64,000 bases of DNA from an uncultured Candidatus Melainabacteria bacterium (GCA_947090755.1 CAMUPF010000008.1:3901-67900); one strand, 5' to 3'. Counted from the first letter of the stretch, positions 7,690 to 22,988 are shown. Translations and numbers: made by a program. Notes: generated by a model not told the origin, from the letters alone.

Positions 7690-8631
7690 GTGTTAAAAGG
7701 GAAGCTGCAGATAATATTAATTACTTTCAACCGTGCAGAATGGTTGAAAAATACTCTTAACTCTGTTTTATCTGAGAATTCACCTGTTAAAGATTTTGAT
7801 ATTACGGTGGTTGATAATAATTCGACTGATAATACCGGTGATATTGTCAAGGGGTTTTGTGCGCGATTCCCTAATTTGAAGTATAAAAAAAATCGCTATA
7901 ATATTGGCGGTAACGCTAATATCGCCAGAGCTTTTGAAATGCCGGAAAAAGAGTATTTCTGGATTCTTTGCGATGATGATTTGTATGACTGGTCAGCTTG
8001 GAGTGAAGTTGAGAAGGCCATTGAGTCAAACCCTGATGTGGTAATAGTTTCACGTGAACAGTTGAAAAAACAAATAAATTTGGGCACGATTACAAAACAG
8101 CTTACGTTTTTACCGTCAGGTATTTATAAGACTGCGAATATTACTGATGATGTGATTCATGATGCACAGTTTAATATACCATTTTTATTCCCGCATTTAT
8201 CAATTGTTTGTGCTCTAATCAACAGTAAAAAAATAGATAACAGAGTGGTTGTTTCCAAAGATATTGTAATCCCTGATAATCTTAATCGTAAATATTTACG
8301 GGGAATAAATTCATCAAACGCTATGGCACGTAATACTCTTTGGATAACAGGTTTTATTAATTCTATCCAGCTTGTTGAAGATTCTAAAACCAGAAAATAT
8401 ATTCTGGATCATCTTCTGGTGCGTCCTCTGGGCTTTTTCTCAATTATAAGTGCAGAATTCAAATATAACCGTCTTTACTGCGGAAATTCTTTTAAAAACA
8501 TTTGTGATGTGTTCTGCGGAATAAGTATAGGGCAGAAATTTCAGTTTTTATTAGCACTTGTCTGGCTGGATGTTATCTATTTTATTAAAAAGTTTATTTT
8601 GCGCAATAAAAAATACATAGGAGAGAAATAA
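7690..8631 (+). CDS. family 2 glycosyltransferase
   Basis: GTG start after AAGAGGA. ITFNRAEWLKNTLNSVL..VVDNNSTDNTGDIV is a GT2 N-terminal signature. Confidence 0.75.
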   Translation: MLKGKLQIILITFNRAEWLKNTLNSVLSENSPVKDFDITVVDNNSTDNTGDIVKGFCARFPNLKYKKNRYNIGGNANIARAFEMPEKEYFWILCDDDLYDWSAWSEVEKAIESNPDVVIVSREQLKKQINLGTITKQLTFLPSGIYKTANITDDVIHDAQFNIPFLFPHLSIVCALINSKKIDNRVVVSKDIVIPDNLNRKYLRGINSSNAMARNTLWITGFINSIQLVEDSKTRKYILDHLLVRPLGFFSIISAEFKYNRLYCGNSFKNICDVFCGISIGQKFQFLLALVWLDVIYFIKKFILRNKKYIGEK

Positions 8632-9428
8632 TGAAAGTCGTAATCCTTGCAGGTGGGCTGGGAACCCGATTAAGTGAAGAAACAAAACTTGTGCCGAAAC
8701 CAATGGTTGAAATCGGCGGAAAGCCTATTTTATGGCACATAATGAAGATTTATTCTCATTACGGGTTTAACGAATTTATTATTTTAACGGGTTATAAATC
8801 TCACGTTATAAAAGATTATTTCGTCCATTACTACCAGCAATATTCTGATATAACTGTTGATATGCTGAATAATTCCGTTGAAATTCATCGTATAAAAACA
8901 GAACCTTGGAAAGTTACAATGCTCTATACCGGCCAAAATACCATGACCGGCGGACGTATAAAAAAAGCGCAGGAATATATCGGAAACGAACCATTCCTTT
9001 TGACTTACGGTGACGGGGTTTCAGATGTTAACATTGATGAATTGATTAGAAATCACAAAGCGTCAGGCAAAATCGCTACGATGACAGCGGTTCAACCGTC
9101 CGGCCGTTTCGGCGCGCTTGTTATCAAAGACGACAATATGATTACATCGTTTATGGAAAAACCAAAAGGCGATGAATCCTGGATTAACGGCGGCTTCTTT
9201 GTTTGTGAGCCTGAAGTATTTGACTATATTCCAAAAGGTGATGATGTAATTTTCGAACGCGCACCGCTGGAAAATCTTGCGAAAGACCACAAGTTAAACG
9301 CCTACAAGCACGATGGTTTCTGGCGTCCGATGGATACGCTTAAGGACAAAAACGATTTGACAGAAATGTGGGAAAGTTCCAACGCCCCTTGGGCTGTATG
9401 GCAAAATCGCGAGGTGGCTAATGTTTAA
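8631..9428 (+). CDS. rfbF: glucose-1-phosphate cytidylyltransferase
   Basis: MKVVILAGGLGTRLSEETKLVPKPMVEIGGKPILWHIMKIYSHYG is the characteristic RfbF/DdhA N-terminus. 265 aa. Confidence 0.9.
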   Translation: MKVVILAGGLGTRLSEETKLVPKPMVEIGGKPILWHIMKIYSHYGFNEFIILTGYKSHVIKDYFVHYYQQYSDITVDMLNNSVEIHRIKTEPWKVTMLYTGQNTMTGGRIKKAQEYIGNEPFLLTYGDGVSDVNIDELIRNHKASGKIATMTAVQPSGRFGALVIKDDNMITSFMEKPKGDESWINGGFFVCEPEVFDYIPKGDDVIFERAPLENLAKDHKLNAYKHDGFWRPMDTLKDKNDLTEMWESSNAPWAVWQNREVANV

Positions 9429-10503
9429 TAACATTTATGCCGGAAAACGTGTATTTTTAACCGGCCATACCGGATTTAAAGGAAGCTGGCTTGCACTCTG
9501 GCTTACAAAACTCGGCGCTGATGTTTGCGGATATTCACTTGCTCCAAACACCGAGCCTTCAATGTTTAAAGAATTGGGTATTGCGGATAAGATTTCTAAA
9601 TCCGTAATCGGAGATATACTTGATGATGCATCCATAGAAAAAGCGATGCAGGATTTTCAACCTGAAATCGTTTTCCACCTTGCTGCGCAGCCGCTCGTAA
9701 GACTTTCATACTCCGAACCTGTTTTGACTTATAAGACCAATGTTATAGGAACATTAAATGTCCTTGAAGCGGCCAGAAAATGTTCTTCTGTAAAAGCATT
9801 TGTAAATATTACGACCGATAAATGCTACGAAAACAAAGAAATTAACCGTGGTTATCGCGAAGATGAACCTATGGGAGGGCATGATATGTATTCATCATCA
9901 AAAGGATGTGTCGAAATTATGTCATCATCTTTCAGACGTTCATTCTTGCAAGAAGGTTATGCAATGGCAACTGCGCGTGCCGGGAATGTTATTGGCGGCG
10001 GAGACTGGGCTTTGGACAGATTAATTCCGGACTGTGTTAAATATATCAACGCAGGTCAAAAAATTGAAATCCGTAACCCTGTTGCCGTTCGTCCGTGGCA
10101 GCATGTTCTGGAACCGTTGTCAGGCTACTTGCTTTTAGGACAAAAACTTCTTGAACATGGTATTCATTTTGCGGATGGTTTCAATTTTGGCCCTAATGAA
10201 GACAGTGTTTTAAAAGTTGCAGAAGTTGCCCAAAAAGTTACTGAATTTTACGGCCGCGGAGAAGTCGTTGTGCATAAGCGCGATGATTTGCACGAAGCAA
10301 ATTTGTTAATGCTTAATATCGAAAAAGCAGAAAAAGTTCTTGGCTGGACGCCAACTTATACCGCTAATCAGGCTATAGAAAAAACTGTTGAATGGTACAG
10401 ACACTTCTATGCGCATGATACGGGTATGTATAACTTTACAATTAATCAAATCGAAAATTATGAGGAAAGCATAAAATGGAACAAGAATTACGCAACAAAG
10501 TAA
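9421..10503 (+). CDS. rfbG: CDP-glucose 4,6-dehydratase
   Basis: GHTGFKGSWLALWL Rossmann motif, YSSSK catalytic motif, 360 aa, overlaps rfbF. Confidence 0.9.
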   Translation: MFNNIYAGKRVFLTGHTGFKGSWLALWLTKLGADVCGYSLAPNTEPSMFKELGIADKISKSVIGDILDDASIEKAMQDFQPEIVFHLAAQPLVRLSYSEPVLTYKTNVIGTLNVLEAARKCSSVKAFVNITTDKCYENKEINRGYREDEPMGGHDMYSSSKGCVEIMSSSFRRSFLQEGYAMATARAGNVIGGGDWALDRLIPDCVKYINAGQKIEIRNPVAVRPWQHVLEPLSGYLLLGQKLLEHGIHFADGFNFGPNEDSVLKVAEVAQKVTEFYGRGEVVVHKRDDLHEANLLMLNIEKAEKVLGWTPTYTANQAIEKTVEWYRHFYAHDTGMYNFTINQIENYEESIKWNKNYATK

Positions 10504-11819
10504 AAGAGGCTGCAAAGGAATATTATTCGGCAGTTTATGGCAAAAAGAGAGAGTTTGACTACATCCCGCCAAGCGGTAAACTTTTAGGCGAAGAAGAGTT
10601 GATGAATATGATTGACGCTTCTTTGGATATGTGGCTTACGGCCGGAAGATTCAATAAAGAGTTTGAAACAAAGTTTGCGAAATATCTTGGTGTAAAATTT
10701 GCGCTTTCAACAAACTCCGGTTCAAGTGCGAATCTTCTTGCTTTTTCCGCACTTACTTCTCACAAACTCGGCGAACGTGCATTGAAGAAAGGCGACGAAG
10801 TTATCTCTGTTGCTGCAGGGTTCCCGACTACAATAAACCCGATTCTTCAACACGGCATGGTTCCGGTTTTCGTTGACTGTGAAGTCGGAACTTACAATAT
10901 CGACGCAGATAAAATTGAAGAGGCTATAACGCCGAAAACAAAAGCGATTTTCCTCGCTCATACGCTTGGAAACAGCTATGATTTAGACAAAATCATGGCG
11001 CTGGCAGAAAAATATAATTTATGGGTTATTGAAGACAGCTGTGACGCTCTGGGCGGTGAATACAAAGGCCGTAAAATCGGTACCATCGGACATATCGGAA
11101 CATTTAGTTTCTATCCTGCACACCACCTGACAATGGGTGAAGGCGGGGCGGTTATTACAAATGACCCTCAATTATACAAAATTATAATGTCATTCCGTGA
11201 TTGGGGCCGTGATTGCTGCTGTCCTCCGGGCCGTGACGGTGTTTGCGGAAAACGTTTCTCACAACAGTTGGGTAACCTTCCTTACGGTTATGACCACAAA
11301 TACACTTATTCTCACATTGGTTTTAACCTTAAAATTACGGATTGGCAAGCGGCTCTTGGCTGTTCACAAATTGATAAACTCGACAGTTTCTTAGAAATTC
11401 GTCGTCGTAACGCAGCACTTTTGACAGAAAAACTGGCGGATTTAAAAGATTACCTGATTCTGCCTGAGGTTAGAGAAGGTGTAAAACCATCTTGGTTCGG
11501 CTATTTGATTTCTGTTAAAGAAAACGCTCCGTTCACAAAACAAGAAATGGTTGAATACATTGAAAAGAAAGGTATCGGAACGCGTCAATTATTTGCGGGC
11601 AATATCCTCAGACAGCCGATGATTGTAGATAATGATGTTAATTTCAGAATTGGAAATTCCGGTTTGATAAATTCAAAAGATTTGACCGAAGAACATTATA
11701 AATTATTACCGAAAACAGATTTTATAATGAATAATACGTTCTGGGTGGGAACATTCCCTGCGCTTGGAGAAGACGAAATTTCAAGAATCTCAGACGCAAT
11801 TCATGCGTGTGTAAAATAA
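10476..11819 (+). CDS. rfbH: CDP-6-deoxy-D-xylo-4-hexulose 3-dehydrase (E1), DegT/RfbH family
   Basis: 447 aa. FRDWGRDCCCPPGRDGVCGKRF..YGYDHKYTYSHIGFNLKITD matches the RfbH-type cysteine-rich region. Sits after rfbF-rfbG. Confidence 0.8.
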   Translation: MEQELRNKVKEAAKEYYSAVYGKKREFDYIPPSGKLLGEEELMNMIDASLDMWLTAGRFNKEFETKFAKYLGVKFALSTNSGSSANLLAFSALTSHKLGERALKKGDEVISVAAGFPTTINPILQHGMVPVFVDCEVGTYNIDADKIEEAITPKTKAIFLAHTLGNSYDLDKIMALAEKYNLWVIEDSCDALGGEYKGRKIGTIGHIGTFSFYPAHHLTMGEGGAVITNDPQLYKIIMSFRDWGRDCCCPPGRDGVCGKRFSQQLGNLPYGYDHKYTYSHIGFNLKITDWQAALGCSQIDKLDSFLEIRRRNAALLTEKLADLKDYLILPEVREGVKPSWFGYLISVKENAPFTKQEMVEYIEKKGIGTRQLFAGNILRQPMIVDNDVNFRIGNSGLINSKDLTEEHYKLLPKTDFIMNNTFWVGTFPALGEDEISRISDAIHACVK

Positions 11820-11839
11820 AAGGCAGGAGCTATAGCCTG

Positions 11840-12979
11840 ATGAGCGTTGCAAAAGGTCAAAATTGCAGTATTAATTTTTTGAGATTTCTTTTTACATTCG
11901 GGATTTGCTTTATGCATCTTGTTTGTCAGGTGATTTCTCCCTATATTGCATATCCGTTGAACTATGGTAATTTTGCGGCACCTTCTTATGCTGTTGAATT
12001 ATTCTTCATAATGGCCGGTTTTTTCTTGTTTTTCAATAAAAAGCCGCTGGAGGAATACATTTCAAACCGTATAATAAGATTGTGGCCGTTGCTGGTGTTT
12101 TCAACTATTATTGCAGGGATTTTGAGAGCTTTGCATATATCAGGTATGTCATTGAAGTTTGATGATATTCTTAACTGCCTGTTTTTACAGGGAACAGGTC
12201 TGATGCAAGGCGGGGCGACTAATGGACCGGCGTGGTTCGTGGGTGTTTTGTTCTGGGTTTCTGTAATATATTATTATTGCAAAAGAGTACTTGGCAAGAA
12301 ATCATTTATTGCATTAATGATTGTTATGGCGGGTATTGGTTTGATAGTATTCGGAACCACAGGCAAGGCAAATCCGTTTGAAGGAGTCAGAGGATTCATT
12401 CTTCCCGCATGGGGGGGGGGGGGGATCTCTATGATGATGTTACGCGGTTTTACGGCTATAGGCATCGGATGTATTCTGGGAAAATTTCAGGAAATTTTTG
12501 CCGGAAGTCATGCTGCGCAGACCCTGCAAAGTGTTTCGGGCTCAAAGAAGCTTTTCACGGCTTTAGAAGTGATATTTTTCGTCGGACTGTGCGCAGTCTT
12601 ACTGGGAGGCAGCCTGATGAATATATATAGTTCTTATTTATTGGCTATGGGCTTATTTTTAATCGTGTTTTTCTTGTTTTTTAATAATTTAGGATATTTT
12701 TCCTCAAAAGTTCTAAACAGAAAAGTGTTTAATCTTCTCGGAGCTTATTCATACGCCATTTATATAATGCAGAATGTAGTATTTTATATTGTAGATTATT
12801 GTTTGAAAACTTACGAAAATCTAATTCCACATACAAATCTGGTTATAACAATTTCGATGATTTTATTTATTGTAATAGGAATTATTTCTTATTATCTGGT
12901 AAATTTCATCGTAGAAAAAACGGTACAGTTATACAATTTTATTCAAAGAGATAATATTTTAAAGGAGACAACTTTATGA
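11840..12979 (+). CDS. membrane acyltransferase family 3 (putative O-acetyltransferase), contains in-frame G14 tract
   Basis: Multi-TM ORF. The N-terminal FLRFLFTFGICFMH motif is typical of acyltransferase_3. ORF open from 11807, ATG 11840 follows AGGAG. The tract encodes WGGGG. Confidence 0.7.
   Translation: MSVAKGQNCSINFLRFLFTFGICFMHLVCQVISPYIAYPLNYGNFAAPSYAVELFFIMAGFFLFFNKKPLEEYISNRIIRLWPLLVFSTIIAGILRALHISGMSLKFDDILNCLFLQGTGLMQGGATNGPAWFVGVLFWVSVIYYYCKRVLGKKSFIALMIVMAGIGLIVFGTTGKANPFEGVRGFILPAWGGGGISMMMLRGFTAIGIGCILGKFQEIFAGSHAAQTLQSVSGSKKLFTALEVIFFVGLCAVLLGGSLMNIYSSYLLAMGLFLIVFFLFFNNLGYFSSKVLNRKVFNLLGAYSYAIYIMQNVVFYIVDYCLKTYENLIPHTNLVITISMILFIVIGIISYYLVNFIVEKTVQLYNFIQRDNILKETTL
12411..12424 (+). 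repeat. homopolymeric G14 tract (in frame, ON)
   Basis: Counted directly: 12411-12420 plus 12421-12424. Confidence 0.95.
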
Positions 12980-13794
12980 ATTCATTAGAAAAGAAAATGG
13001 TAGACACTCTCGTAGATTTGAAAGAAAATCATCACGTAGTCGGCATCAAAGCAGAATTTGAGGCTGAAGGTACAAGACTTGAAGAAGCTTTGAGATTAAA
13101 AGAAGTTGTAACAAAAGCCGGTCTTGAATTAACTATTAAAATCGGCGGATGTGAAGCTATTAAAGATATGTATGATGCAAGAACAATCGGCGTAAGCACA
13201 ATCGTTGCACCTATGATTGAAACACCTTACGCAATGAAAAAATATGTTCAGGCTACAAAATTTGTATTCCCTGAAGAAGAAAGAAAAGATGTTAAATTTT
13301 TAATTAATATCGAAACAATCACAGGTTATGCAAACCTTAAAGAAATGATTGCGTCCCCATATTTTGCTGAAATTGGCGGTATCGTTCTCGGCCGTGTTGA
13401 CATGACAGGTTCAATGGGCTTGACAAGAGAGGATATTAACTCTAAACAAATTTTTGATATTGCAAATACACTTTCTCAAGAAATGTTAAAAGTCAATAAA
13501 GATATGGTAATCGGCGGTGGTGTTTCTGCACAATCACTTCCGTTCTTTAAAGATTTGCCTGCTAACGCTTTATCAAGATTTGAAACAAGAAAAATCATCT
13601 TCGATGCGCAAAAAGCATTAAAAGACCCTAATGCTGACAAAGGTATTTTGAAAGCTGTTGGCTTTGAATTGATGTGGTTGAAAAACAAACGTGAATTCTA
13701 CGGAATGATATTCCAAGAAGACGCCGCACGTTTGACAATGCTTGAAGCAAGATACAAAAAGTTAATCGAAGAAGCAGGTGGCGTGTATGCGTAA
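12976..13794 (+). CDS. HpcH/HpaI aldolase / citrate-lyase-beta-like TIM-barrel protein
   Basis: IVAPMIETPYAMKKYV, FLINIETITGYANL and IVLGRVDMTGSMG resemble the three conserved strands of HpaI-type pyruvate aldolases. Assignment by motif resemblance only. Confidence 0.5.
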   Translation: MNSLEKKMVDTLVDLKENHHVVGIKAEFEAEGTRLEEALRLKEVVTKAGLELTIKIGGCEAIKDMYDARTIGVSTIVAPMIETPYAMKKYVQATKFVFPEEERKDVKFLINIETITGYANLKEMIASPYFAEIGGIVLGRVDMTGSMGLTREDINSKQIFDIANTLSQEMLKVNKDMVIGGGVSAQSLPFFKDLPANALSRFETRKIIFDAQKALKDPNADKGILKAVGFELMWLKNKREFYGMIFQEDAARLTMLEARYKKLIEEAGGVYA

Positions 13795-14446
13795 GGCTTT
13801 AGTGACAGGTGCCTCCCGCGGTATCGGAAAAGCCATAAAGAATTTATTTGAGGAAAGGGGCATAGTGGTTTATGCCCCTGCCCGCTCTGAAATGAATCTT
13901 TCTTCTAACGAAAGTATCAAGGCGTATGTTGAAAAGATTCCTGATGTGGATATTCTGGTTAATTGTGCAGGTATAAATGATTTAGGCTCTATTGAAGAAA
14001 TGACCGAAGAAAAGTTGCAGGAAATGATTCAGGTGAATCTTATTTCACAAACTATGCTTATCAAATATGTTTCTGAAAAGATGAAGGCTAATCGTTACGG
14101 AAGAATCGTTAATTTTGCGTCTATCTGGTGTGATTTTTCAAAAGAGCGCAGAATTATGTATTCAATAGCAAAAGCAGGAGTAAAAGGTCTGACAACAGCG
14201 GCGGCTGTTGAGCTTTCAAAATACAATGTCCTTGTTAACGCAGTAGCTCCGGGGTTTGTAAATACTGAAATGACTTCGCAAAATAACACCCCTGAACAAA
14301 TTGAGGCGCTTGCGCAGGCACTCCCTATTAAACGTATGGCAGAACCTGTCGAAATCGCTGAATTCGTTTATTTCCTTTCAAGTGAACAAAATTCTTTTAT
14401 TACCGGTCAAACAATTTTTGCAGACGGAGGTTTTTCATGTGTTTAG
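13787..14446 (+). CDS. short-chain dehydrogenase/reductase (FabG-like)
   Basis: TGASRGIGKAI cofactor motif, YSIAK catalytic motif. ATG overlaps the upstream stop (ATGCGTAA). Confidence 0.8.
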   Translation: MRKALVTGASRGIGKAIKNLFEERGIVVYAPARSEMNLSSNESIKAYVEKIPDVDILVNCAGINDLGSIEEMTEEKLQEMIQVNLISQTMLIKYVSEKMKANRYGRIVNFASIWCDFSKERRIMYSIAKAGVKGLTTAAAVELSKYNVLVNAVAPGFVNTEMTSQNNTPEQIEALAQALPIKRMAEPVEIAEFVYFLSSEQNSFITGQTIFADGGFSCV

Positions 14447-15516
14447 ATAAATTGACGGTTAAGTCTAATATAAAAAATTACGATGTGTTTTTTGAAAATG
14501 ACGCATCATTTCTGAAATCACTTTCTGAAAAAGAAAATAGCGTTTATGTCGTTGATGAAAATGTGTACGAAGCGCATAAAACAGGTTGTCTTTCAACTTT
14601 ACCGCAGGAAAGATTAATAATCCTTCCAATCGGCGAAGAAATGAAAAATATTGATTCTGTTTGCAGTTTGTATGAAAAAATCATGCGATTTGCACCTCGT
14701 AAAAACCTGAATCTAATTTCCATTGGGGGCGGTATTACTCAGGATGTAACGGGTTTTGTTGCATCGTCTTTGTATCGCGGTGTAAACTGGATTTTTGTTC
14801 CGACGACTTTACTTGCGCAGGTTGACAGTTGTATCGGCGCTAAGACTTCATTAAATTTCAACCATTACAAGAATCTAATAGGAACGTTTTATCCGCCATC
14901 AGAAATCCATATTTATCCTGAATTTTTGAAAACTTTAACAAAAGCGGATTTTTATTCAGGTGTTGGCGAAATGGCTAAATTACATTTGATGAACGGTGAA
15001 TCTGATACAAAAGTTTTTGTGGATTCTCTGGAAGCTATAGATAGACTTGAGCCGCAAACTTTATTGGAACGCACGCAAAACTGTCTTAAAATCAAAAAAT
15101 CATACATTGAGGATGATGAATTTGATACAGGCAAAAGAAATATGTTGAATTACGGTCATTGTTTTGGTCATGCGATTGAAAGTTCAACAGACTTTGCGAT
15201 TTCTCATGGTCAGGCGGTTGTTGTCGGTATGATTCTGGCAAACAAAGAGGCCTTAAGACGTGGAATTTTAAGCGCGGAAAACGAAAAGTATATCCGTGAA
15301 AATGTTTTAGAACCTGTATTAAAGGTGCAAGTTCCGGATGTAGATGCAGCAAAAACCGTTGCCGCAATGGGACAGGATAAGAAAAATCTTGGTAAAGGTT
15401 TAGCCCTTGTCATGATTCAAGATGGCTATGAAATGGTGAAAATCACTGATATGACTACACAAGAAGCTGGAGAAATATTGAAAGAATGTCAAAAATTAAA
15501 TTATCAGACTATATAG
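14437..15516 (+). CDS. 3-dehydroquinate synthase-like sugar-phosphate cyclase superfamily protein
   Basis: GGGITQDVTGFVASSLYRGVNWIFVPTTLLAQVDSCIGAKTSLNF parallels the AroB core, with HCFGHAIE metal-site histidines. Confidence 0.7.
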   Translation: MCLDKLTVKSNIKNYDVFFENDASFLKSLSEKENSVYVVDENVYEAHKTGCLSTLPQERLIILPIGEEMKNIDSVCSLYEKIMRFAPRKNLNLISIGGGITQDVTGFVASSLYRGVNWIFVPTTLLAQVDSCIGAKTSLNFNHYKNLIGTFYPPSEIHIYPEFLKTLTKADFYSGVGEMAKLHLMNGESDTKVFVDSLEAIDRLEPQTLLERTQNCLKIKKSYIEDDEFDTGKRNMLNYGHCFGHAIESSTDFAISHGQAVVVGMILANKEALRRGILSAENEKYIRENVLEPVLKVQVPDVDAAKTVAAMGQDKKNLGKGLALVMIQDGYEMVKITDMTTQEAGEILKECQKLNYQTI

Positions 15517-17261
15517 CAAAAAGATTGAAAGAATGTTATAATGTAGAACACTTTTTTATGGTTTCCGGAGGCGGTGCAATGCACTTAAACGACAGCCTTG
15601 GAAAATACATCCCCTATACCGCAAACCATCACGAACAGGCTTGCGCTATTGCGGCGGAGGGTTATGCAAGGGTTAATCAGAAACTCGGCGTTGTAAATGT
15701 TACAACCGGCCCCGGAGGTTTGAACTGTCTAAACGGTGTTTTTGGCCAGTGGACAGATAGTGTACCTGTTTTGTATATTTCCGGTCAGGTAAAATTTACC
15801 ACAACAATGGCCTCTTGTCCGGAAGTTCCTCTGCGTCAGCTTGGTGATCAGGAGGTTGATATTATTTCCTGCGTCAAACCGCTTGTGAAGTATGCTAAAA
15901 TGGTAACTGAACCTAATGAAATAAAATACCACCTTGACAGAGCGATTTATGAAGCTACAACCGGTCGTATGGGACCTGTTTGGCTGGATATTCCGATGAA
16001 TGTTCAAGGCGCAATGATAGATGAAGATGAATTAAAAGGATTTACTCCGCCATCTGCTAAAGTGTATGATTTGAAAATTGCGCAGGTCGTTGAAAAATTA
16101 AAATCCGCAAAACGTCCGTTAATCGTTGCGGGTTACGGTTTAAGACTGGCTAAACAGGAAGAAAATTTCTTAAAACTTCTTGAAAACACTGATATTCCTG
16201 TGGTTACAACGTTTAACGGAATGGATTTACTCTCGTCAGACCATAAAAACTTCTGCGGTCGAATCGGTACAGTCGGTCAACGTGCGGGTAACTTTACGCT
16301 TCAAAACGCGGACGTGATTTTGTCCCTCGGAACCCGTAACAATATTCGTCAGGCTAGTTACAACTGGGAAAATTTTGCTAAAAATGCTTATAAAATGGTT
16401 GTCGATATTGACAGCGCTGAACTTGATAAACCGACAGTGGTTCCGGACTTGAAAGTTAACGCGGATTTGAAAGAATTTTTGCCTGCTCTTATAAAAGAAT
16501 TCCCGACGCTTGATGTTAAAGAATGGGCAAGTTTTTCTAAAAATTTACAGGCAAAATATACTTTTGAAAAAACAGAGCAATATCAGTCTAAAGACGGTGT
16601 TATCAATGTCTATGATTTTGTTCATACATTGAGTGAAGTTATGAGTGAAGGTGACATTGTTGTTGCCGGAAACGGCTCTGCCTGTGTTTGTACACATCAG
16701 GCGGCACATGTTAAGCCTGAACAGCGAATTTTCTGGAATTCAGGTGATGCATCAATGGGTTATGACCTGCCTGCGGCGCTTGGGGCCTGTTATGAAGCAA
16801 ATGGCAGAAATGTAATCTGTTTGACCGGCGACGGCTCAATAATGATGAATATTCAGGAACTTCAAACCGTTGCGTTTAATAAGTTACCGCTGAAAATTTT
16901 TGTTATTAATAATGCCGGTTATTCCTCAATAAGACAAACTCAAAGGAATTTCTTCAGCGGTCGTATGACGGGTTCAGGCGATGACAGCGGTGTGAGCGTT
17001 CCGGATTTTTGCAAACTCGCAGAAGGCTTTGGTCTTAATTCGGTAAGAGTTTCTAATCCTGTGACAATGAAAGAGGATTTGGCTGCGGTATTGAAAATGG
17101 ACGGCCCTGTGGTTTGTGAAGTAATGGTAGAAAAAGAATATGCGTTCTCTCCTAAATTATCTGCACGAAAACTGGACGACGGAACAATGGTTTCTCCTAG
17201 TTTGGAAGATATGTTCCCGTTCCTTGACAGGGAGGAATATGAAAGGAATTTGTTAAAATGA
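15486..17261 (+). CDS. thiamine-diphosphate-dependent enzyme, acetolactate-synthase-like (YerE-like candidate)
   Basis: 591 aa. The TPP-binding motif GDGSIMMNIQELQT..NN and the N-terminal HEQACAIAAEGYAR are typical of the ALS/YerE family. Confidence 0.8.
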   Translation: MSKIKLSDYIAKRLKECYNVEHFFMVSGGGAMHLNDSLGKYIPYTANHHEQACAIAAEGYARVNQKLGVVNVTTGPGGLNCLNGVFGQWTDSVPVLYISGQVKFTTTMASCPEVPLRQLGDQEVDIISCVKPLVKYAKMVTEPNEIKYHLDRAIYEATTGRMGPVWLDIPMNVQGAMIDEDELKGFTPPSAKVYDLKIAQVVEKLKSAKRPLIVAGYGLRLAKQEENFLKLLENTDIPVVTTFNGMDLLSSDHKNFCGRIGTVGQRAGNFTLQNADVILSLGTRNNIRQASYNWENFAKNAYKMVVDIDSAELDKPTVVPDLKVNADLKEFLPALIKEFPTLDVKEWASFSKNLQAKYTFEKTEQYQSKDGVINVYDFVHTLSEVMSEGDIVVAGNGSACVCTHQAAHVKPEQRIFWNSGDASMGYDLPAALGACYEANGRNVICLTGDGSIMMNIQELQTVAFNKLPLKIFVINNAGYSSIRQTQRNFFSGRMTGSGDDSGVSVPDFCKLAEGFGLNSVRVSNPVTMKEDLAAVLKMDGPVVCEVMVEKEYAFSPKLSARKLDDGTMVSPSLEDMFPFLDREEYERNLLK

Positions 17262-17971
17262 AAAGCATAATTTATGCAATGGTTCCTGCAAGAGTCGGAA
17301 GCACACGTTTAAAATTAAAGAATATTCGTTTGCTTCACGAGAAACCGTTAATCTGGTATGGGGTAAACGCCGCGCAAACCGCCGGATTTTTCGATAAAGT
17401 TTTTATAAATTCCGATGAAGGTCTGTGGGGTAAACTCGCGCAGGACTACGGGTGTGAATTTTATCATCGTAATAGCGAATTCGCTACCTCTATTTCTACT
17501 GCTGATGATGTTATATATGACTTTTTTAAGAATAATCCCGAATGTGATTTCCTTTTCTGGATAAATACAACAAATCCTTTCCAGCCGTATGAGGATTATG
17601 CAAAAGCATTTGAGTACTTTATTGATAATAATTTAGACGGGTTGATTACGACAACAAAGGATAAAATTCATACAAGGTTTATGGGTAAGCCTCTTAACTA
17701 TAATGCAAATGATAAATTACCTAAAACTCAGGATATTGAACCGGTAGAAGTTTTTGCTTTTCCGTTTAGTATCTGGAGAAGAGAAAGTTTTATAAGAAAT
17801 TATGAAAATCACGGTTATGCTTATCTTTGCGGTAATATAGGCTACTGGGAAGTCAATAAACTTGCAGCAGTTGAAATCGATGATGAGGAAGATTTTCTTT
17901 TCGCTAATGCAATTCTTTATGGACGTGATAATCCTTTGTGTTACAAAAAAGAATATGCAAAATTGGATTAA
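17258..17971 (+). CDS. acylneuraminate/ulosonate cytidylyltransferase family protein (CTP_transf_3)
   Basis: AMVPARVGSTRLKLKNIRLLHEKPLIWY matches the NeuA/KdsB-type N-terminal motif. Confidence 0.75.
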   Translation: MKSIIYAMVPARVGSTRLKLKNIRLLHEKPLIWYGVNAAQTAGFFDKVFINSDEGLWGKLAQDYGCEFYHRNSEFATSISTADDVIYDFFKNNPECDFLFWINTTNPFQPYEDYAKAFEYFIDNNLDGLITTTKDKIHTRFMGKPLNYNANDKLPKTQDIEPVEVFAFPFSIWRRESFIRNYENHGYAYLCGNIGYWEVNKLAAVEIDDEEDFLFANAILYGRDNPLCYKKEYAKLD

Positions 17972-17973
17972 TA

Positions 17974-18695
17974 ATGAAAAGATTTCTAAGAAAAATTTTG
18001 GGTAAAAATAAAACGCAATATTATGACATTTGCGGGGATAATAATAAATTAATTATTATTGAAAATGGTGTTGAGCGTCTGGCGAACAAGGAAACTATTC
18101 TCGGTTTGTGGGTTTCGATACACGGAAATAACAATACCGTAAAGTTAGAACTTCCGATTCATTTTGAAAATTCATCTATTATAATTTCGGATTCTGATGA
18201 GGCTGACATTTTTATCCGCAAGACTCAGCATCACGTTAAAAATTTTTCGGTAAATTCACGCCTGCATAGCGGCCATAAACTATTTATTGATGAAGATTTT
18301 TATTGCAACGGGGCAACAATTTTGCTAAGAGAAGAAAACGCGTCGGTAAAAATAGGTAAAGATTGTATGTTTTCGTGGGGAATAACTATATGGACTTCTG
18401 ACGGACATTGTATTTTTGATAATACAACCGGCGAACTGTTAAATGACCCATCCGGGGGGGGGGGGGCCTCATCGGTAATCATGTATGGGTAGGCTGCAAC
18501 GTTAATTTATTGAAAAATTCGAAAATCCCTGACAATTCGGTCGTTGCGTTAGGGGCAATTATTTCTAAAAGATTTGATGAGGAAAATATTTTGCTCGTTG
18601 GCACAAATGAAGTTAAGAAAAGAAATATTCGATGGACAAGAGATTTTATAACTGATTATAAAAGGAGTAAATGTGAAAGTATTAATAGATTCTGA
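17974..18695 (+). CDS. left-handed beta-helix (hexapeptide) acetyltransferase, split by G13 tract (OFF frame)
   Basis: The upstream ORF ends 26 nt after the tract. The other frame reads LIGNHVWVGCNVNLLKNSKIPDNSVVALGAIISK, a classic hexapeptide transferase C-terminus. 14 or 11 G would fuse the two parts. Confidence 0.75.
18454..18466 (+). repeat. homopolymeric G13 tract
   Basis: Counted directly: 18454-18460 plus 18461-18466. Confidence 0.95.
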
Positions 18696-20197
18696 TTATT
18701 TTTTTATAAGGGATATGTATTATCGTTCCTGCGGCCATACACTTAATACTATTAATATTTTGAAACGTTTTTTCGGCGAAGATTTATTAAAGGATTTCAG
18801 GTGTGTTATTTCTGAAACTGTTTATTACCAGTTAAATGAAGAAGAATTATCCGGTATTAATCCTGTAGTGATTTTTGACAGGGAATTGCGGGATATTTTT
18901 GAGGATAAATTTATATCGCACAATGAAATTGTCGAAAAGTTTTATTACGGCAATTTGACCCCTAACAATCTACAGGATTTGAAGGCGCTTTATTCTCGCA
19001 AACTGGAAGGTTTTGTGCCGGATTTAGTTATGCAATTTGAATATCATAATAAATGTTATGACGATATTTTCCCTAAGGCGTTTAAATTAACCTTTCAGGG
19101 CGGACTTTTTAAAAGGGGAATTGGGCCTGAAACTTATATTATTGACCCCTCAGGCAGCTTTAAGGATTCATCTTTAAATATCTTTCGTGATGAAATTAAC
19201 AATTTCGTAATTTCTGAACAACAAAACACACTGATTGATAACTTTAAACGCCGCCTTAGTAATCTTATAAAAGAGAATACATCTTTTATTTCTACCTTAT
19301 TAGCGCCTTATAAAGAGAAGTTTGATTATCTTGTTTTGCTTCCGTTACAAATGAGTAATCATTATGGTTTTGATACTGAAACAGGATTTAAAACGCAGTA
19401 TGACTATCTTGAATATGTACTGGATAATGTTCCTAAAAATGTCGGGGTAATCGTAACAGAACACGACCATGGCCGTTTTCTTGAAGAAGGAACCTTCGGA
19501 AAAGGCGGATTCTTAGAATGGTTTGAAAACAAGTATGAAAATTTGGTATACATTAAAGAACTGCGGGGGGGGGGGGGGGTATTCCTCTCCGTCAATATAT
19601 TTCTTGCCGGAGGTTGATGCTGTGATAAATGTTTCGTCCTCAGTCGCCCTGACTGCAACTTTATTCGATAAAAGAATAATATCACTTGGTAAAACTTATA
19701 ATAATTGTTTTAAGGATACTCAGGGATTAGAAAACATTATTGAAGTTTTAAGCAAACCGGTTAGAAATAAAAATTCGTTTTTATTCTGGTTTTTGACTAA
19801 ATATGTTTTTTTCGAAAAACAGTTGAATGATAAATCTTTTATGTACCAATATTTATGTGATTCCATAGAAAAATTCAAGAATGAAGGAGTAACTTTTGCT
19901 TACTTTACGCAAATGAATGGAATCGAAGAGGCTTGTGATTCTATTGCAGGGTATATTGAAAATGTTTTCATTACAGAGCGCCGCAGGCAGGAAGATGAAA
20001 GGCTTGCGCAAGAGGCAGAAAGGCTTGCAAGGGAAAAGGAAATAGAAGAAGCAAGACTACGCGAAGAGGAGCGAAAACGGCGGATTGATAAAAAACGTGA
20101 AAGATGTAACCGGTTCGGAATCTATTACGAGGCAAAACATATTATTATCGGCCTGTTCGGGCTTAAAATAAAATTTAGAAACTATTTGGAGGAATAA
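18673..20197 (+). CDS. capsule-synthesis (KpsC/KpsS-like, PF05159-like) protein with C-terminal charged coiled coil, split by G15 tract (OFF frame)
   Basis: YLVLLPLQMSNHYGFD and VIVTEHDHG before the tract. YSSPSIYFLPEVDAVINVSSSVALTATLFDKRIISLGK after it, in the -1 frame. 14 or 17 G would fuse them. Family call by motif resemblance. Confidence 0.55.
19565..19579 (+). repeat. homopolymeric G15 tract
   Basis: Counted directly: 19565-19570 plus 19571-19579. Confidence 0.95.
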
Positions 20198-20200
20198 TTT

Positions 20201-21265
20201 ATGAATACAATTTTAAAAGAAGATTTTGATTATATTCTTGGCGATAAGAATATTGATTGGTCAGAATTAGCAGGTACGACAATTCTGGTTTCCGGAGCAT
20301 CAGGATTCTTGCCCTCATATTTGATAAAAACGCTTTTATACCTGAATTCTCTCGGTGTCCAAAAACCCGTCAAAATCCTTGCACTTGTAAGAAATATTGA
20401 CAAAGCAAAAGCTAAATTTAAAGATTCACTCAATGACAGTAATTTAGTGTTCCTTGCACAGGATGTTACAAAACCGATAGAAGTTCCTGAAAAAATTGAT
20501 TATATTATTCACGCAGCAAGTCAGGCCAGCCCTAAATTCTTTTTCTCCGATCCTGTAGGAACTATCAATGCCAATACTCTGGGTACAAGTAATTTACTGG
20601 CTCTTGCAAAAGAAAAAGAGGTTAAAAGTTTCCTATATTTTTCATCCGGCGAAGTATGCGGTGACATTTTTGAACATAAAAATCTTGTATCAGAAGATGA
20701 TTACGGGATTGTTAACCCGTTAGATGTTAGAAATTGCTATTCAGAGAGTAAAAGAATGGGCGAAAATATGTGTTTTTGCTGGAATTACCAGTATGGTGTT
20801 CCGGTAAAAATCGTAAGACCGTCGCATACTTATGGCCCCGGATTTAGTTTTGACGATGGCAGAGCGTTTACAAGTTTTGTGGCCTCTGTGGTTAAGGGCG
20901 AAGATATTGTGTTAAAAAGTGACGGCAGTGCAAAAAGGTCTTTTGTCTATCTGGCAGATGCAGTAAGAGCGTATATTTTTGTACTTTTAAACGGTCAGAA
21001 CGGTGCCGCTTACAATGTTGGCTACGATGGTGAAATAAGTATTCTGGAACTGGCAAACCTTCTTGTTTCTCTGGCTGATAACAAAAATATTAAAGTTCGT
21101 CGTGAAATTTCAGGTAATGCCCCGAGCAGTAAAGTCGCAAACGGACTCCTCGATATCAGTAAATTAAAAGCTATGGGCTGGTATCCGAATATTTCAGAAG
21201 AAAAAGGGTTTAAAAGAACTATTGACTACTTTCTTCAGGAATTAGAATTGGAGACCGTGCACTAA
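20201..21265 (+). CDS. NAD-dependent sugar epimerase/dehydratase (extended SDR)
   Basis: VSGASGFLPSYL cofactor motif and YSESK catalytic motif. 354 aa. Confidence 0.8.
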   Translation: MNTILKEDFDYILGDKNIDWSELAGTTILVSGASGFLPSYLIKTLLYLNSLGVQKPVKILALVRNIDKAKAKFKDSLNDSNLVFLAQDVTKPIEVPEKIDYIIHAASQASPKFFFSDPVGTINANTLGTSNLLALAKEKEVKSFLYFSSGEVCGDIFEHKNLVSEDDYGIVNPLDVRNCYSESKRMGENMCFCWNYQYGVPVKIVRPSHTYGPGFSFDDGRAFTSFVASVVKGEDIVLKSDGSAKRSFVYLADAVRAYIFVLLNGQNGAAYNVGYDGEISILELANLLVSLADNKNIKVRREISGNAPSSKVANGLLDISKLKAMGWYPNISEEKGFKRTIDYFLQELELETVH

Positions 21266-21270
21266 AACTA

Positions 21271-21297
21271 AAAAAGAGGCTCGATGAGCCTCTTTTT
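21271..21297. terminator. bidirectional intrinsic terminator
   Basis: aaaaagaggctc-gat-gagcctcttttt between convergent genes. Confidence 0.8.
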
Positions 21298-22611: not shown

Positions 22612-22953
22612 ATGGATAAGGCAGAAGTAAAAAAGAATGTGGGGCAAAAGGTTCGTACATATAGGTTGAATTTAAAGTTATCCCAGTTCGCACTTGGTGA
22701 AAAAGCGGATATTAATCAAAGACAAATCGCCCAAATAGAATCCGGAAAATCTTTGCCTTCTCTTAACACTTTGCTTAAATTCTGTGAAATTTTTCACTGT
22801 GAAATCGGTGAATTTTTTGAACAAAATATCGTCAAAACCAGAGAAGAACTTAAGCAGGAGATTATTAACATTATTGATGACTTTAACTTTGGCCAATTAG
22901 AGTTTATATATTTGTATATCCGCAATTTTTCTATGGTTAGGTCAAAAAAATAA
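22612..22953 (+). CDS. XRE-family helix-turn-helix transcriptional regulator
   Basis: VGQKVRTYRLNLKLSQFALGEKADINQRQIAQIESGKSLPSLNTLLKFCEIF is a Cro/C1-type HTH. Confidence 0.8.
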   Translation: MDKAEVKKNVGQKVRTYRLNLKLSQFALGEKADINQRQIAQIESGKSLPSLNTLLKFCEIFHCEIGEFFEQNIVKTREELKQEIINIIDDFNFGQLEFIYLYIRNFSMVRSKK

Positions 22954-22988
22954 ATAGGCCTAGGCATTTAATAGAAAGGAATTTGATT

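What the first reader, a model, noticed from the sequence alone, without database searches (positions are those of the whole stretch)
8631..17261. CDP-3,6-dideoxyhexose entry genes plus a YerE-like TPP enzyme but no visible E3 reductase: candidate branched-chain dideoxyhexose pathway
rfbF (CDP-glucose synthesis), rfbG (4,6-dehydratase) and rfbH (E1 3-dehydrase) are contiguous. The established pathway needs the E3 [2Fe-2S] flavoprotein reductase (DdhD/AscD/RfbI) to complete C-3 deoxygenation, and no such gene is in this locus. Downstream is a 591-aa acetolactate-synthase-like TPP enzyme with an SDR nearby. In Yersinia pseudotuberculosis, YerE (TPP-dependent) and YerF (reductase) add a two-carbon branch to CDP-4-keto-3,6-dideoxyglucose to make yersiniose A. 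The gene content is compatible with a yersiniose-like branched sugar, but that is inference from family membership only.
Basis: inference. Interest (0 to 1): 0.6.

Follow-up and report, generated by a model that had tools for sequence, protein, structure and literature searches.

The report
Long-branched dideoxy-sugar operon without E3
This operon of an uncultured gut bacterium (Gastranaerophilales) most likely makes a CDP-activated 3,6-dideoxy sugar with a long carbon side chain attached by a YerE-type thiamine enzyme. That kind of route was published in 2022, and the "missing" E3 reductase is absent from the whole lineage rather than being a peculiarity of this locus.

Summary
rfbF, rfbG, rfbH and a 591-aa thiamine (ThDP) enzyme lie in one overlapping operon at 8631-17261. 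No E3 reductase exists in the locus, in the 99.98%-complete genome, or in 150 of 151 genomes of the order.

The ThDP enzyme is YerE-like: it is closest to JanthE, then PpYerE, and lies outside true acetolactate synthases. The genome has its own genuine IlvB.

A two-carbon, yersiniose-like branch is unlikely. In 63 of 67 related loci the ThDP gene follows a very conserved HpcH/HpaI-type aldolase gene. This is the published aldolase + ThDP + reductase scheme for long acyl-branched sugars (erwiniose, caryophyllose).

Between the aldolase and ThDP genes, related loci carry one of four things: an SDR plus a dehydroquinate-synthase paralog (as here), a HAD-IA phosphatase, a HAD-IIA phosphatase, or nothing. 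I infer that the aldolase product is phosphorylated. The phosphate would be removed either by hydrolysis or, here, by DHQS-type elimination plus ketoreduction, giving an omega-deoxy side chain.

RfbH keeps His220 and all four [2Fe-2S] cysteines, so it probably takes electrons from general ferredoxins, as SpnQ does.

Everything rests on sequence comparison; nothing was assayed.

The parts
7690..8631 (+). Family-2 glycosyltransferase, first gene of the overlapping operon
   Evidence: PF00535, E = 1.2e-20. Its stop overlaps the rfbF start.
8631..9428 (+). rfbF/ddhA, glucose-1-phosphate cytidylyltransferase
   Evidence: TIGR02623, 402.5 bits against a cut-off of 300.25.
9421..10503 (+). rfbG/ddhB, CDP-glucose 4,6-dehydratase
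   Evidence: TIGR02622, 487.1 bits against a cut-off of 278.45.
10476..11819 (+). rfbH/ddhC, the E1 enzyme (PMP- and [2Fe-2S]-dependent CDP-4-keto-6-deoxyglucose 3-dehydrase)
   Evidence: NF011936, 667 bits against 423. PDB 3BCX at E = 3.4e-154. His216 (= His220) and Cys189/247/249/257 (= Cys193/251/253/261, spacing C-X57-C-X-C-X7-C) are invariant in 47 orthologs.
11807..12979 (+). Membrane acyltransferase-3 (probable O-acylation of the glycan). It contains a G14 tract at 12411-12424 that is currently in frame.
   Evidence: PF01757, E = 5e-24; tract found. This gene occupies the slot that holds an extended-SDR 'Epimerase' gene in most related loci.
12976..13794 (+). Divergent HpcH/HpaI-type class II pyruvate aldolase, proposed maker of the 2-oxo-acid side-chain donor
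   Evidence: PF03328, 39.5 bits against 25. AlphaFold model with pLDDT 94. Best Foldseek hits are HpaI, YfaU, HpcH and SbnG. The metal ligands Glu113 and Asp142 are invariant in 85 sequences. At least 69% identical in 80 loci.
13778..14446 (+). FabG-like short-chain dehydrogenase/reductase, always paired with the AroB-like gene
   Evidence: PF13561/PF00106. It co-occurs with the AroB-like gene in the 24 type-A loci.
14437..15516 (+). Dehydroquinate-synthase paralog (TIGR04425 type), proposed NAD+-dependent phosphate-eliminating enzyme acting on the side-chain precursor
   Evidence: TIGR04425, 393.5 bits (cut-off 400); aroB model, 267 bits (cut-off 305). Thirteen DHQS active-site positions are invariant in 27 sequences. 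The genuine aroB lies elsewhere in the genome.
15486..17261 (+). YerE/JanthE-like ThDP-dependent carboligase
   Evidence: Three TPP domains. PDB scores: JanthE 372 bits, PpYerE 251 bits, best ALS 203 bits. Its clade is sister to JanthE and outside ALS. The ALS model scores 327 bits against a cut-off of 538.
17258..17971 (+). CMP-type (CTP_transf_3) cytidylyltransferase, probably part of a separate decoration pair with the transferase at 18673-20197
   Evidence: PF02348, E = 9e-20. It co-occurs with the 507-aa transferase in the window, L015, L008, L028 and L041, in both type-A and type-B loci.
17974..18693 (+). Hexapeptide-repeat acetyltransferase gene broken by a G13 tract (18454-18466)
   Evidence: Reading the tract one G longer or two shorter gives an open frame of about 239 aa. 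Hexapep hit.
18673..20197 (+). 507-aa KpsS/capsule-synthesis-like transferase gene broken by a G15 tract (19565-19579)
   Evidence: With 14 G the frame is open for 507 aa. Weak local similarity to a GT99/Capsule_synth protein of L003.
20201..21265 (+). Extended SDR (NDP-sugar epimerase/reductase family), candidate YerF-like reductase in this locus
   Evidence: PF01370, E = 1.7e-42. 59-65% identical copies sit downstream of the ThDP gene in L012, L015 and L067. The usual 247-307-aa 'Epimerase' gene of the cassette is absent from this genome.

Best explanation
The operon builds a CDP-activated, C-4 acyl-branched 3,6-dideoxyhexose whose branch is longer than two carbons (erwiniose/caryophyllose type).

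Proposed steps:
1. RfbF and RfbG make CDP-4-keto-6-deoxyglucose.
2. RfbH (E1) removes the C-3 hydroxyl. Its [2Fe-2S] cluster is re-reduced by a general low-potential carrier (a ferredoxin fed by 2-oxoacid:ferredoxin oxidoreductases), not by a dedicated E3. This resembles SpnQ.
3. In parallel, the HpcH-type aldolase condenses pyruvate with a phosphorylated aldehyde, giving a 3-deoxy-2-ulosonate omega-phosphate (DAHP-like).
4. The AroB-like enzyme removes the phosphate by DHQS-type NAD+-dependent elimination, and the SDR reduces the resulting ketone. The product is an omega-deoxy polyhydroxy 2-oxo acid.
5. The YerE/JanthE-like ThDP enzyme decarboxylates this acid and adds it to the C-4 ketone of the CDP-sugar.
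6. An extended SDR (20201-21265) probably reduces the branch carbonyl. Glycosyltransferases and phase-variable acyltransferases then finish the glycan.

What sequence comparison shows: gene identities, intact catalytic residues, conserved gene order and co-occurrence, and the absence of E3.

What is inferred: every substrate, the order of steps, the identity of the aldehyde, and whether the AroB-like enzyme cyclises its product.
For: ThDP enzyme is YerE-like:
- PDB scores are JanthE 372 bits, PpYerE 251 bits and best ALS 203 bits.
- In the tree, the cassette clade (support 100) is sister to JanthE (99), then PpYerE, with ALS as outgroup.
- The ALS equivalog model scores 327 bits against a cut-off of 538. 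The genome's own IlvB scores 602.
- The catalytic Glu and the GDG...N motif are invariant in 74 sequences.

Coupling to the aldolase and to RfbH:
- The ThDP gene lies within 4 kb downstream of the aldolase gene in 63 of 67 loci. rfbH lies within 6 kb upstream in 35 of 53 loci.
- Of 16 genomes where the aldolase-ThDP pair stands apart from rfbH, 15 have an RfbH ortholog elsewhere.
- Across 151 genomes of the order the counts are: ThDP+RfbH+ 28, ThDP+RfbH- 2, ThDP-RfbH+ 24, neither 97. The odds ratio is 57 and Fisher p = 5e-14.

Published scheme:
- Aldolase + ThDP enzyme + reductase + ddh genes is the published route to long acyl-branched sugars. MMAR_2331 of that scheme belongs to the aldolase/citrate-lyase family (PMC9306805; PMC12247030).

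Phosphorylated intermediate:
- The slot between the aldolase and ThDP genes holds SDR + AroB-like (24 loci), a HAD-IA phosphatase (27), an unrelated HAD-IIA phosphatase (5) or nothing (16).
- The AroB-like enzyme keeps all 13 DHQS substrate, phosphate and metal positions.
- The caryophyllose branch is 1,3,4,5-tetrahydroxyhexyl (PMC5706390). This is what a 7-deoxygenated DAHP-like donor would give.

E1 intact, E3 absent:
- Ferredoxins and two 2-oxoacid:ferredoxin oxidoreductase loci are present.
- SpnQ is the precedent (PMC8987622).
Against: - Nothing has been assayed, and the organism is uncultured.
- The aldolase is very divergent from characterised ones: 10-15% identity, TM-score about 0.55-0.6, and a PDB sequence match of only E = 0.65. 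Its substrates are therefore guesses.
- A complete DHQS active site argues for full DHQS chemistry, including cyclisation. That would destroy the 2-oxo acid the ThDP enzyme needs. Either cyclisation is suppressed, or the enzyme acts after coupling, or its product goes elsewhere.
- The window's ThDP enzyme nests in a clade of phosphatase-type loci, being 92% identical to that of L008. The locus is therefore a recent mosaic, and its parts may not be tuned to one another.
- YpYerE, ErwE and MMAR_2332 themselves could not be fetched. 'YerE-like' rests on JanthE and PpYerE only.
- The co-occurrence statistics ignore shared ancestry.
Confidence: 0.68

Rival explanations
1. Yersiniose-A-like pathway. 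The ThDP enzyme would use pyruvate to add a two-carbon branch and the nearby SDR would act as YerF. The aldolase and the AroB-like genes would belong to another pathway.
For: - JanthE, the closest characterised relative, also accepts pyruvate (PMC12247030).
- An SDR lies two genes upstream of the ThDP gene.
Against: - The aldolase gene immediately precedes the ThDP gene or its tailoring module in 63 of 67 loci. The pair stays together even when separated from rfbFGH.
- The FabG-like SDR is found only with the AroB-like gene and is missing from the 48 loci of the other types.
Confidence: 0.1
2. Two separate products. The aldolase, AroB-like enzyme, SDR, CMP-type cytidylyltransferase and KpsS-like transferase would form their own module. 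It would make and transfer a CMP-activated ulosonic or carbocyclic (dehydroquinate-like) acid. The ThDP enzyme would work independently on the CDP-sugar.
For: - The complete DHQS active site suggests cyclisation.
- CTP_transf_3 enzymes activate 2-keto-3-deoxy acids, and one sits directly after the ThDP gene.
- A KpsS/capsule-like transferase follows.
Against: - The cytidylyltransferase/transferase pair is present in only 5 loci. It also occurs with phosphatase-type loci that lack the AroB-like gene (L008, L028).
- Most type-A loci lack the cytidylyltransferase: at least 21 of 24 show no homolog.
- The only enzyme conserved downstream of the aldolase and its modules is the ThDP enzyme.
Confidence: 0.13
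3. The ThDP enzyme is only a decarboxylase or an ordinary acetolactate synthase. It would, for example, turn the aldolase product into a 2-deoxy aldose, with no link to the CDP-sugar.
For: - The annotation given by one source is 'acetolactate synthase I/II/III large subunit'.
- It is about 31% identical to true ALS.
Against: - It scores below every ALS cut-off.
- A true ALS exists in the genome.
- It lies in the YerE-like branch of the tree.
- It co-occurs strongly with RfbH.
Confidence: 0.04
4. The deoxygenation stalls. Without E3, RfbH would be inactive or would act as an aminotransferase, so that the real acceptor is a 4-keto-6-deoxy or 4-amino sugar.
For: - No E3 is found anywhere.
- SpnQ shows transaminase activity when no reductase is present (PMC8987622).
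Against: - His220 and all four cluster cysteines are invariant in 47 orthologs. This degree of conservation implies selection for the redox function.
- 52 genomes of the order keep RfbH without E3.
Confidence: 0.05

Closest known systems
Long acyl-branched sugar pathways: erwiniose (ErwE/F/I/J, Pectobacterium atrosepticum) and caryophyllose (MMAR_2331 aldolase + MMAR_2332 ThDP enzyme, Mycobacterium marinum); Steitz et al. 2022, PMC9306805
   Same: - The logic is the same: ddhA-C genes supply CDP-4-keto-3,6-dideoxyglucose.
- A pyruvate aldolase makes a hydroxylated 2-oxo acid.
- A YerE-like ThDP enzyme attaches it at C-4, and a reductase finishes the branch.
- MMAR_2331 is in the same aldolase/citrate-lyase (HpcH) family.
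   Different: - The aldolase here is a very divergent, tightly conserved subfamily.
- A DHQS paralog + SDR, or HAD phosphatases, sit between the aldolase and ThDP genes. I found no paper linking a DHQS-like enzyme with YerE-type clusters.
- There is no E3.
- The hosts are gut Melainabacteria and Elusimicrobia rather than Proteobacteria or mycobacteria.
JanthE (Janthinobacterium sp. HH01, PDB 8RPH/8RPI/8RPJ) and PpYerE (PDB 5AHK), characterised YerE-like ThDP lyases
   Same: - Same three-domain fold.
- These are the best PDB matches, at 372 and 251 bits.
- JanthE is the sister group of the cassette clade in the tree.
   Different: - The window enzyme has the canonical GDG ThDP motif, whereas JanthE has CDG (PMC12188165).
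- The physiological substrates of JanthE are unknown.
Yersiniose A pathway (ddhDABC + YerE + YerF, Yersinia pseudotuberculosis O:VI)
   Same: - Same CDP-sugar acceptor pathway.
- Same enzyme family for the branching step.
   Different: - Yersinia has E3 (ddhD) and no aldolase, and it adds a C2 branch from pyruvate.
- Here E3 is absent and an aldolase-derived donor is expected.
SpnQ (Saccharopolyspora spinosa), an E1-type 3-dehydrase without a dedicated E3
   Same: - It is a PMP/[2Fe-2S] 3-dehydrase.
- It is reduced by general ferredoxin/flavodoxin systems instead of E3 (PMC8987622).
   Different: - SpnQ acts on a dTDP-2,6-dideoxy sugar.
- The window enzyme is a close ortholog of CDP-specific E1 (PDB 3BCX, E = 3e-154).
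- Its reductant is not identified.
3-dehydroquinate synthase (AroB)
   Same: - All 13 active-site positions I mapped (metal, phosphate and substrate ligands) are kept.
   Different: - It scores below the aroB cut-off, 267 against 305.
- It is encoded in a glycan operon next to an SDR, while the true aroB sits beside shikimate kinase elsewhere in the genome.

Membership tests
YerE-like ThDP-dependent carboligases | Three-domain ThDP fold with the catalytic Glu and the GDG...N diphosphate-Mg motif | tested here: met
   PF02776/PF00205/PF02775 are all present. Glu50, Gly448-Asp449-Gly450 and Asn455 are invariant in 74 sequences.
YerE-like ThDP-dependent carboligases | Closer to characterised YerE-like enzymes than to acetolactate synthases | tested here: met
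   372 bits (JanthE) and 251 (PpYerE) against at most 203 (ALS). The tree agrees, with 99-100% SH-aLRT support. Caveats: only two YerE-like and two ALS references were used, the branches are long, and YpYerE itself was not available.
YerE-like ThDP-dependent carboligases | Genomic association with the CDP-4-keto-3,6-dideoxyglucose genes | tested here: met
   Same operon in this window. rfbH lies within 6 kb in 35 of 53 loci. 15 of 16 unlinked cases have RfbH elsewhere. Odds ratio 57 across 151 genomes.
YerE-like ThDP-dependent carboligases | Carboligation of a 2-oxo acid to a ketone acceptor | not testable with these tools
   This needs an enzyme assay.
Biosynthetic acetolactate synthase (IlvB) | Score above the curated equivalog cut-off | tested here: not met
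   TIGR00118 scores 327 bits against a cut-off of 538. The genome's separate paralog on contig C18 scores 602.
E1 (CDP-6-deoxy-L-threo-D-glycero-4-hexulose 3-dehydrase, RfbH/DdhC/AscC) | His in place of the PLP lysine, plus the C-X57-C-X-C-X7-C [2Fe-2S] motif | tested here: met
   Alignment to 3BCX/3BB8. All five residues are invariant in 47 orthologs with exact spacing.
Classical E1/E3 system | A partner E3 (Fer2 + FAD_binding_6 + NAD_binding_1 reductase; DdhD/AscD/RfbI) | tested here: not met
   - No Fer2 domain in the genome.
- RfbI gives no tblastn hit in the genome.
- No hit in 85 loci.
- No hit in 47 of 50 cassette genomes.
- No hit in 150 of 151 genomes of the order.
Class II (HpcH/HpaI) pyruvate aldolases | Pfam membership, TIM-barrel fold and the Glu/Asp metal ligands | tested here: met
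   PF03328 scores 39.5 bits against 25. The top Foldseek hits are HpaI, YfaU and HpcH. Glu113 and Asp142 align to the YfaU ligand motifs and are invariant. Identity to solved members is only 10-15%.
3-dehydroquinate synthase (AroB) / TIGR04425 | Score above the curated cut-off | tested here: inconclusive
   The aroB model scores 267 bits against 305, so that test is not met. TIGR04425 scores 393.5 against 400, just below the cut-off. Active-site positions are all kept. I mapped them to A. nidulans numbering from memory.
Yersiniose A pathway | ddhD present, pyruvate as donor, no aldolase needed | tested here: not met
   ddhD is absent. An aldolase is tightly coupled to the ThDP gene. The donor itself is not testable here.

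The most novel reading that the evidence does not exclude
TIGR04425 dehydroquinate-synthase paralogs, together with a dedicated SDR, would be a side-chain tailoring module. They would apply DHQS chemistry (NAD+-dependent oxidation, then beta-elimination of phosphate) to an aldolase-made, DAHP-like 2-oxo acid. The outcome would be either an omega-deoxy branch of the caryophyllose type or a carbocyclic branch. Evolution would swap this module for simple HAD phosphatases to diversify surface sugars in gut Melainabacteria and Elusimicrobia. In the same lineages, E1 would run on general ferredoxin instead of E3.
Probability: 0.35. Interest if true: 0.6.

Novelty: new variant of a known kind. Interest (0 to 1): 0.42.

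Why it matters
- Branched 'higher' deoxysugars are rare, strongly antigenic surface components. Their biosynthesis was only given a common scheme in 2022.
- This cassette occurs in at least 209 species genomes, mostly uncultured gut Melainabacteria and Elusimicrobia. Such sugars may therefore be common on members of the gut microbiota whose surfaces have never been analysed.
- The interchangeable modules (DHQS-like + SDR, two kinds of phosphatase, or none) give a concrete, testable idea of how omega-deoxy and fully hydroxylated side chains arise. How the deoxy-aldehyde precursors form is not explained in the literature I could search.
- ThDP enzymes of this clade may be useful biocatalysts for tertiary alcohols.
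- The lineage-wide lack of E3 shows that the textbook E1/E3 pair is not general.

Tried and rejected
1. An E3 hidden elsewhere. I searched with Pfam Fer2, FAD_binding_6 and NAD_binding_1 and with Salmonella RfbI. The only hits were PyrK and an NfnA-like protein.
2. The FAD-containing ThDP enzyme as a stand-in for E3. I rejected this because 24 genomes of the order have RfbH without the ThDP enzyme.
3. Flavodoxin as the reductant. The genome has no Flavodoxin_1 domain.
4. Annotated YerE-like clusters on plasmids for comparison. Only true ALS genes were found, at about 31% identity.
5. Supplementary sequences of ErwE, MMAR_2332 and MyGE. They are not held, so these enzymes are missing from the tree.
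6. Literature linking a DHQS-like enzyme or TIGR04425 to YerE-type clusters. Nothing was found.
7. Pfam annotation of the repaired 507-aa transferase. No hit.
8. Transcription or tract-length evidence from sequencing runs.
9. A sequence-profile search of the aldolase against the PDB gave only E = 0.65 for YfaU. The fold assignment rests on the predicted structure instead.

Full report
**Observation.** The window lies in a 1.78-Mb, 99.98%-complete genome. Its closest named relatives are Candidatus Gastranaerophilales; L008, Ca. Gastranaerophilus phascolarctosicola, shares 92-98% identity in the cassette genes.

From 7690 to 17971 ten ORFs on the + strand overlap or abut:
- a family-2 glycosyltransferase
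- rfbF (TIGR02623, 402.5 bits, cut-off 300)
- rfbG (TIGR02622, 487 bits, cut-off 278)
- rfbH (NF011936, 667 bits, cut-off 423)
- an acyltransferase-3
- an HpcH/HpaI-like protein
- a FabG-like SDR
- an AroB-like protein (TIGR04425, 393.5 bits, cut-off 400; aroB model 267 bits, cut-off 305)
- the 591-aa ThDP enzyme
- a CTP_transf_3 cytidylyltransferase

It passed over the four genes that sit between rfbH and the ThDP gene or just after it.

**RfbH is an intact E1.** It matches Yersinia E1 (PDB 3BCX) at E = 3e-154. The His that replaces the PLP lysine is kept (His216 here, His220 in E1). So are the four cluster cysteines (Cys189/247/249/257, equivalent to Cys193/251/253/261), with the exact spacing C-X57-C-X-C-X7-C. 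All five residues are invariant in 47 orthologs. The refutation condition 'RfbH is catalytically dead' is not met.

**There is no E3 in the locus, the genome or the lineage.**
- The genome has no Fer2 domain, and the same search rings in 12 of 14 control genomes.
- It has one FAD_binding_6 protein (PyrK, next to PyrD) and one NAD_binding_1 protein (NfnA-like).
- I took a genuine E3, Salmonella RfbI, from an annotated record. It gave no tblastn hit in the genome at E <= 0.01 and none in 85 related loci.
- It gave none at E <= 1e-5 in 47 of 50 genomes that carry the cassette. The other three showed only partial FNR-module matches.
- It gave none in 150 of 151 genomes of the order, although 52 of these encode an RfbH ortholog.
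- E1-type enzymes without E3 are known. SpnQ uses ferredoxin or flavodoxin reductase pairs (PMC8987622).
- This genome lacks long-chain flavodoxin. It has two 2-oxoacid:ferredoxin oxidoreductase loci and several small ferredoxins.
- A general ferredoxin is therefore the most likely reductant. This is inference.

**The ThDP enzyme is YerE-like, not an ALS.**
- All ALS equivalog models score far below their cut-offs (TIGR00118: 327 against 538). A paralog on contig C18 is a true ALS (602 bits).
- Among solved structures the best matches are JanthE (8RPH, 372 bits) and PpYerE (5AHK, 251 bits). Both are characterised YerE-like ketone-accepting lyases (PMC12188165, PMC12247030). The best ALS scores 203 bits.
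- In a maximum-likelihood tree, 74 cassette enzymes form one clade (support 100). The clade is sister to JanthE (99), then PpYerE, with E. coli ALS I and the genome's own IlvB as outgroup.
- Caveats: I transcribed the PDB sequences from the aligned parts printed, the references are few, and their branches are long. YpYerE, ErwE and MMAR_2332 could not be obtained.

**A conserved cassette.**
- Homologs of the ThDP enzyme at 70-92% identity are abundant in metagenomes.
- A scan with the aldolase found relatives in at least 209 species genomes. The 80 best share at least 69% identity. They are mostly Gastranaerophilales and other Melainabacteria, Elusimicrobia/Endomicrobia and Vampirovibrionales.
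- The usual gene order is rfbF-rfbG-rfbH-Epimerase(247-307 aa)-aldolase-[module]-ThDP.
- The ThDP gene lies within 4 kb downstream of the aldolase in 63 of 67 loci that extend far enough. rfbH lies within 6 kb upstream in 35 of 53.
- In some genomes the aldolase-ThDP pair stands alone among housekeeping genes (MinCDE and guanylate kinase in L032). Of 16 such genomes, 15 have rfbF-rfbG-rfbH elsewhere.
- Across 151 genomes of the order, the ThDP enzyme and RfbH co-occur 28 times. ThDP alone occurs twice (one of those genomes is 73% complete), RfbH alone 24 times, and neither 97 times. The odds ratio is 57 and Fisher p = 5e-14, not corrected for shared ancestry.
- This links the ThDP enzyme to the E1 product. 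It also shows that the aldolase is its constant partner.

**The branch is probably long.** The combination of aldolase, YerE-like enzyme, reductase and ddh genes is the published 'unifying scheme' for erwiniose, caryophyllose and gastriose. In that scheme the aldolase supplies a hydroxylated 2-oxo acid donor, and MMAR_2331 belongs to the aldolase/citrate-lyase family (PMC9306805).

The window's aldolase-like protein passes the Pfam HpcH_HpaI threshold (39.5 bits against 25). Its AlphaFold model has pLDDT 94. The best structural matches are the class II pyruvate aldolases HpaI, YfaU and HpcH, along with SbnG and the pyruvate kinase barrel, at TM-scores of about 0.55-0.6 and 10-15% identity. The two metal ligands are invariant. 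It is thus a divergent member of the family, and its substrates are unknown.

**The tailoring slot.** Between the aldolase and ThDP genes, related loci carry one of four arrangements:
- an SDR plus the AroB-like gene, 24 loci (type A, as in this window)
- a HAD-IA phosphatase, 27 loci (type B)
- an unrelated HAD-IIA phosphatase, 5 loci
- nothing, 16 loci (type C)

On the ThDP tree the module has switched at least 15 times. The window's ThDP enzyme nests inside a 13-member clade whose other 12 members are type B, so this locus is a recent mosaic.

Two unrelated phosphatases and a DHQS paralog occupy the same position. The DHQS paralog keeps all 13 mapped metal, phosphate and substrate residues in 27 sequences. 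I mapped these positions to the A. nidulans numbering from memory. Together this suggests that the aldolase product carries a phosphate and resembles DAHP.

Hydrolysis would leave a terminal hydroxyl. DHQS-type oxidation and elimination, followed by SDR reduction, would leave a terminal methyl. Caryophyllose carries a 1,3,4,5-tetrahydroxyhexyl branch (PMC5706390), which is the pattern expected from a 7-deoxygenated 3-deoxyheptulosonate.

This step is inference, and it has a real difficulty. Complete DHQS chemistry ends in cyclisation, which would consume the 2-oxo group that the ThDP enzyme needs. The enzyme may not cyclise, may act after coupling, or may feed another product. The true aroB lies beside shikimate kinase elsewhere in the genome.

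**The reductase.** The FabG-like SDR occurs only with the AroB-like gene, so it is unlikely to be the YerF equivalent. The general companion of the cassette is an extended-SDR 'Epimerase' gene placed after rfbH. This genome lacks that gene and has an acyltransferase-3 in its place. The extended SDR at 20201-21265 is the candidate here. It is conserved downstream of the ThDP gene in L012, L015 and L067.

**The cytidylyltransferase.** The CTP_transf_3 gene and the 507-aa KpsS-like transferase occur together in five loci of both type A and type B. Most type-A loci lack the cytidylyltransferase: at least 21 of 24 show no homolog. This argues against a single 'aldolase-DHQS-SDR-CMP-transferase' module. 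It does not exclude that the ulosonic acid is also CMP-activated in this locus.

**Comparison and novelty.** The overall design is a known kind (Steitz et al. 2022). [quoted passage not shown] Three things are not described in the literature I could search: the DHQS-like + SDR module, its interchange with phosphatases, and the lineage-wide absence of E3. I therefore rate this a new variant of a known kind, of moderate interest.

Earlier AI notes of this scan, which I read only after forming this view, describe similar cassettes and E3-less loci in other genomes. They are consistent with this report but are not independent evidence.

**Limits.** Nothing was assayed.

Noticed in passing
window 12411-12424, 18454-18466, 19565-19579; also 2890-2901 and 29427-29437: There are long homopolymer tracts: G14 inside the acyltransferase-3 gene (in frame), G13 breaking a hexapeptide acetyltransferase gene, and G15 breaking a 507-aa transferase gene. 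A C12 and a G11 tract lie elsewhere in the window. They look like slipped-strand on/off switches of glycan-modifying genes.
   Followed up: partly
L032 10001-12694; likewise L031, L033, L059, L063-L065, L070, L071: In some genomes the aldolase-ThDP pair stands alone among housekeeping genes (MinCDE, guanylate kinase, a ZIP transporter), while rfbF-rfbG-rfbH sit on another contig.
   Followed up: yes
window 12976-17261 compared with L008: The locus is a mosaic. rfbF, rfbG, rfbH, the aldolase and the ThDP enzyme are 92-98% identical to those of L008, which carries a phosphatase module. The SDR and AroB-like genes are closest to those of other genomes (83-86% to L010 and L012).
   Followed up: partly
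window 17258-17971 and 18673-20197; L015, L008, L028, L041: A CMP-type cytidylyltransferase and a KpsS-like transferase travel together as a pair in five loci of different cassette types. This suggests a separate cytidine-nucleotide-dependent decoration.
   Followed up: partly
window 21297-22481 (-) and 22983-24149 (+), with 22612-22953 between them: Two paralogous family-2 glycosyltransferases with very similar N-termini flank a small XRE-type HTH regulator gene.
   Followed up: no
whole genome (G000): The genome has no plant-type [2Fe-2S] ferredoxin domain and no long-chain flavodoxin domain at all. Its FNR-type proteins are limited to PyrK and an NfnA-like protein.
   Followed up: yes
order-level genomes G061-G210: 24 of 151 genomes of the order have RfbH without the ThDP enzyme, so they presumably make unbranched 3,6-dideoxyhexoses. 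Within the window's own genus, two of four genomes lack both genes, so the trait varies between species.
   Followed up: partly
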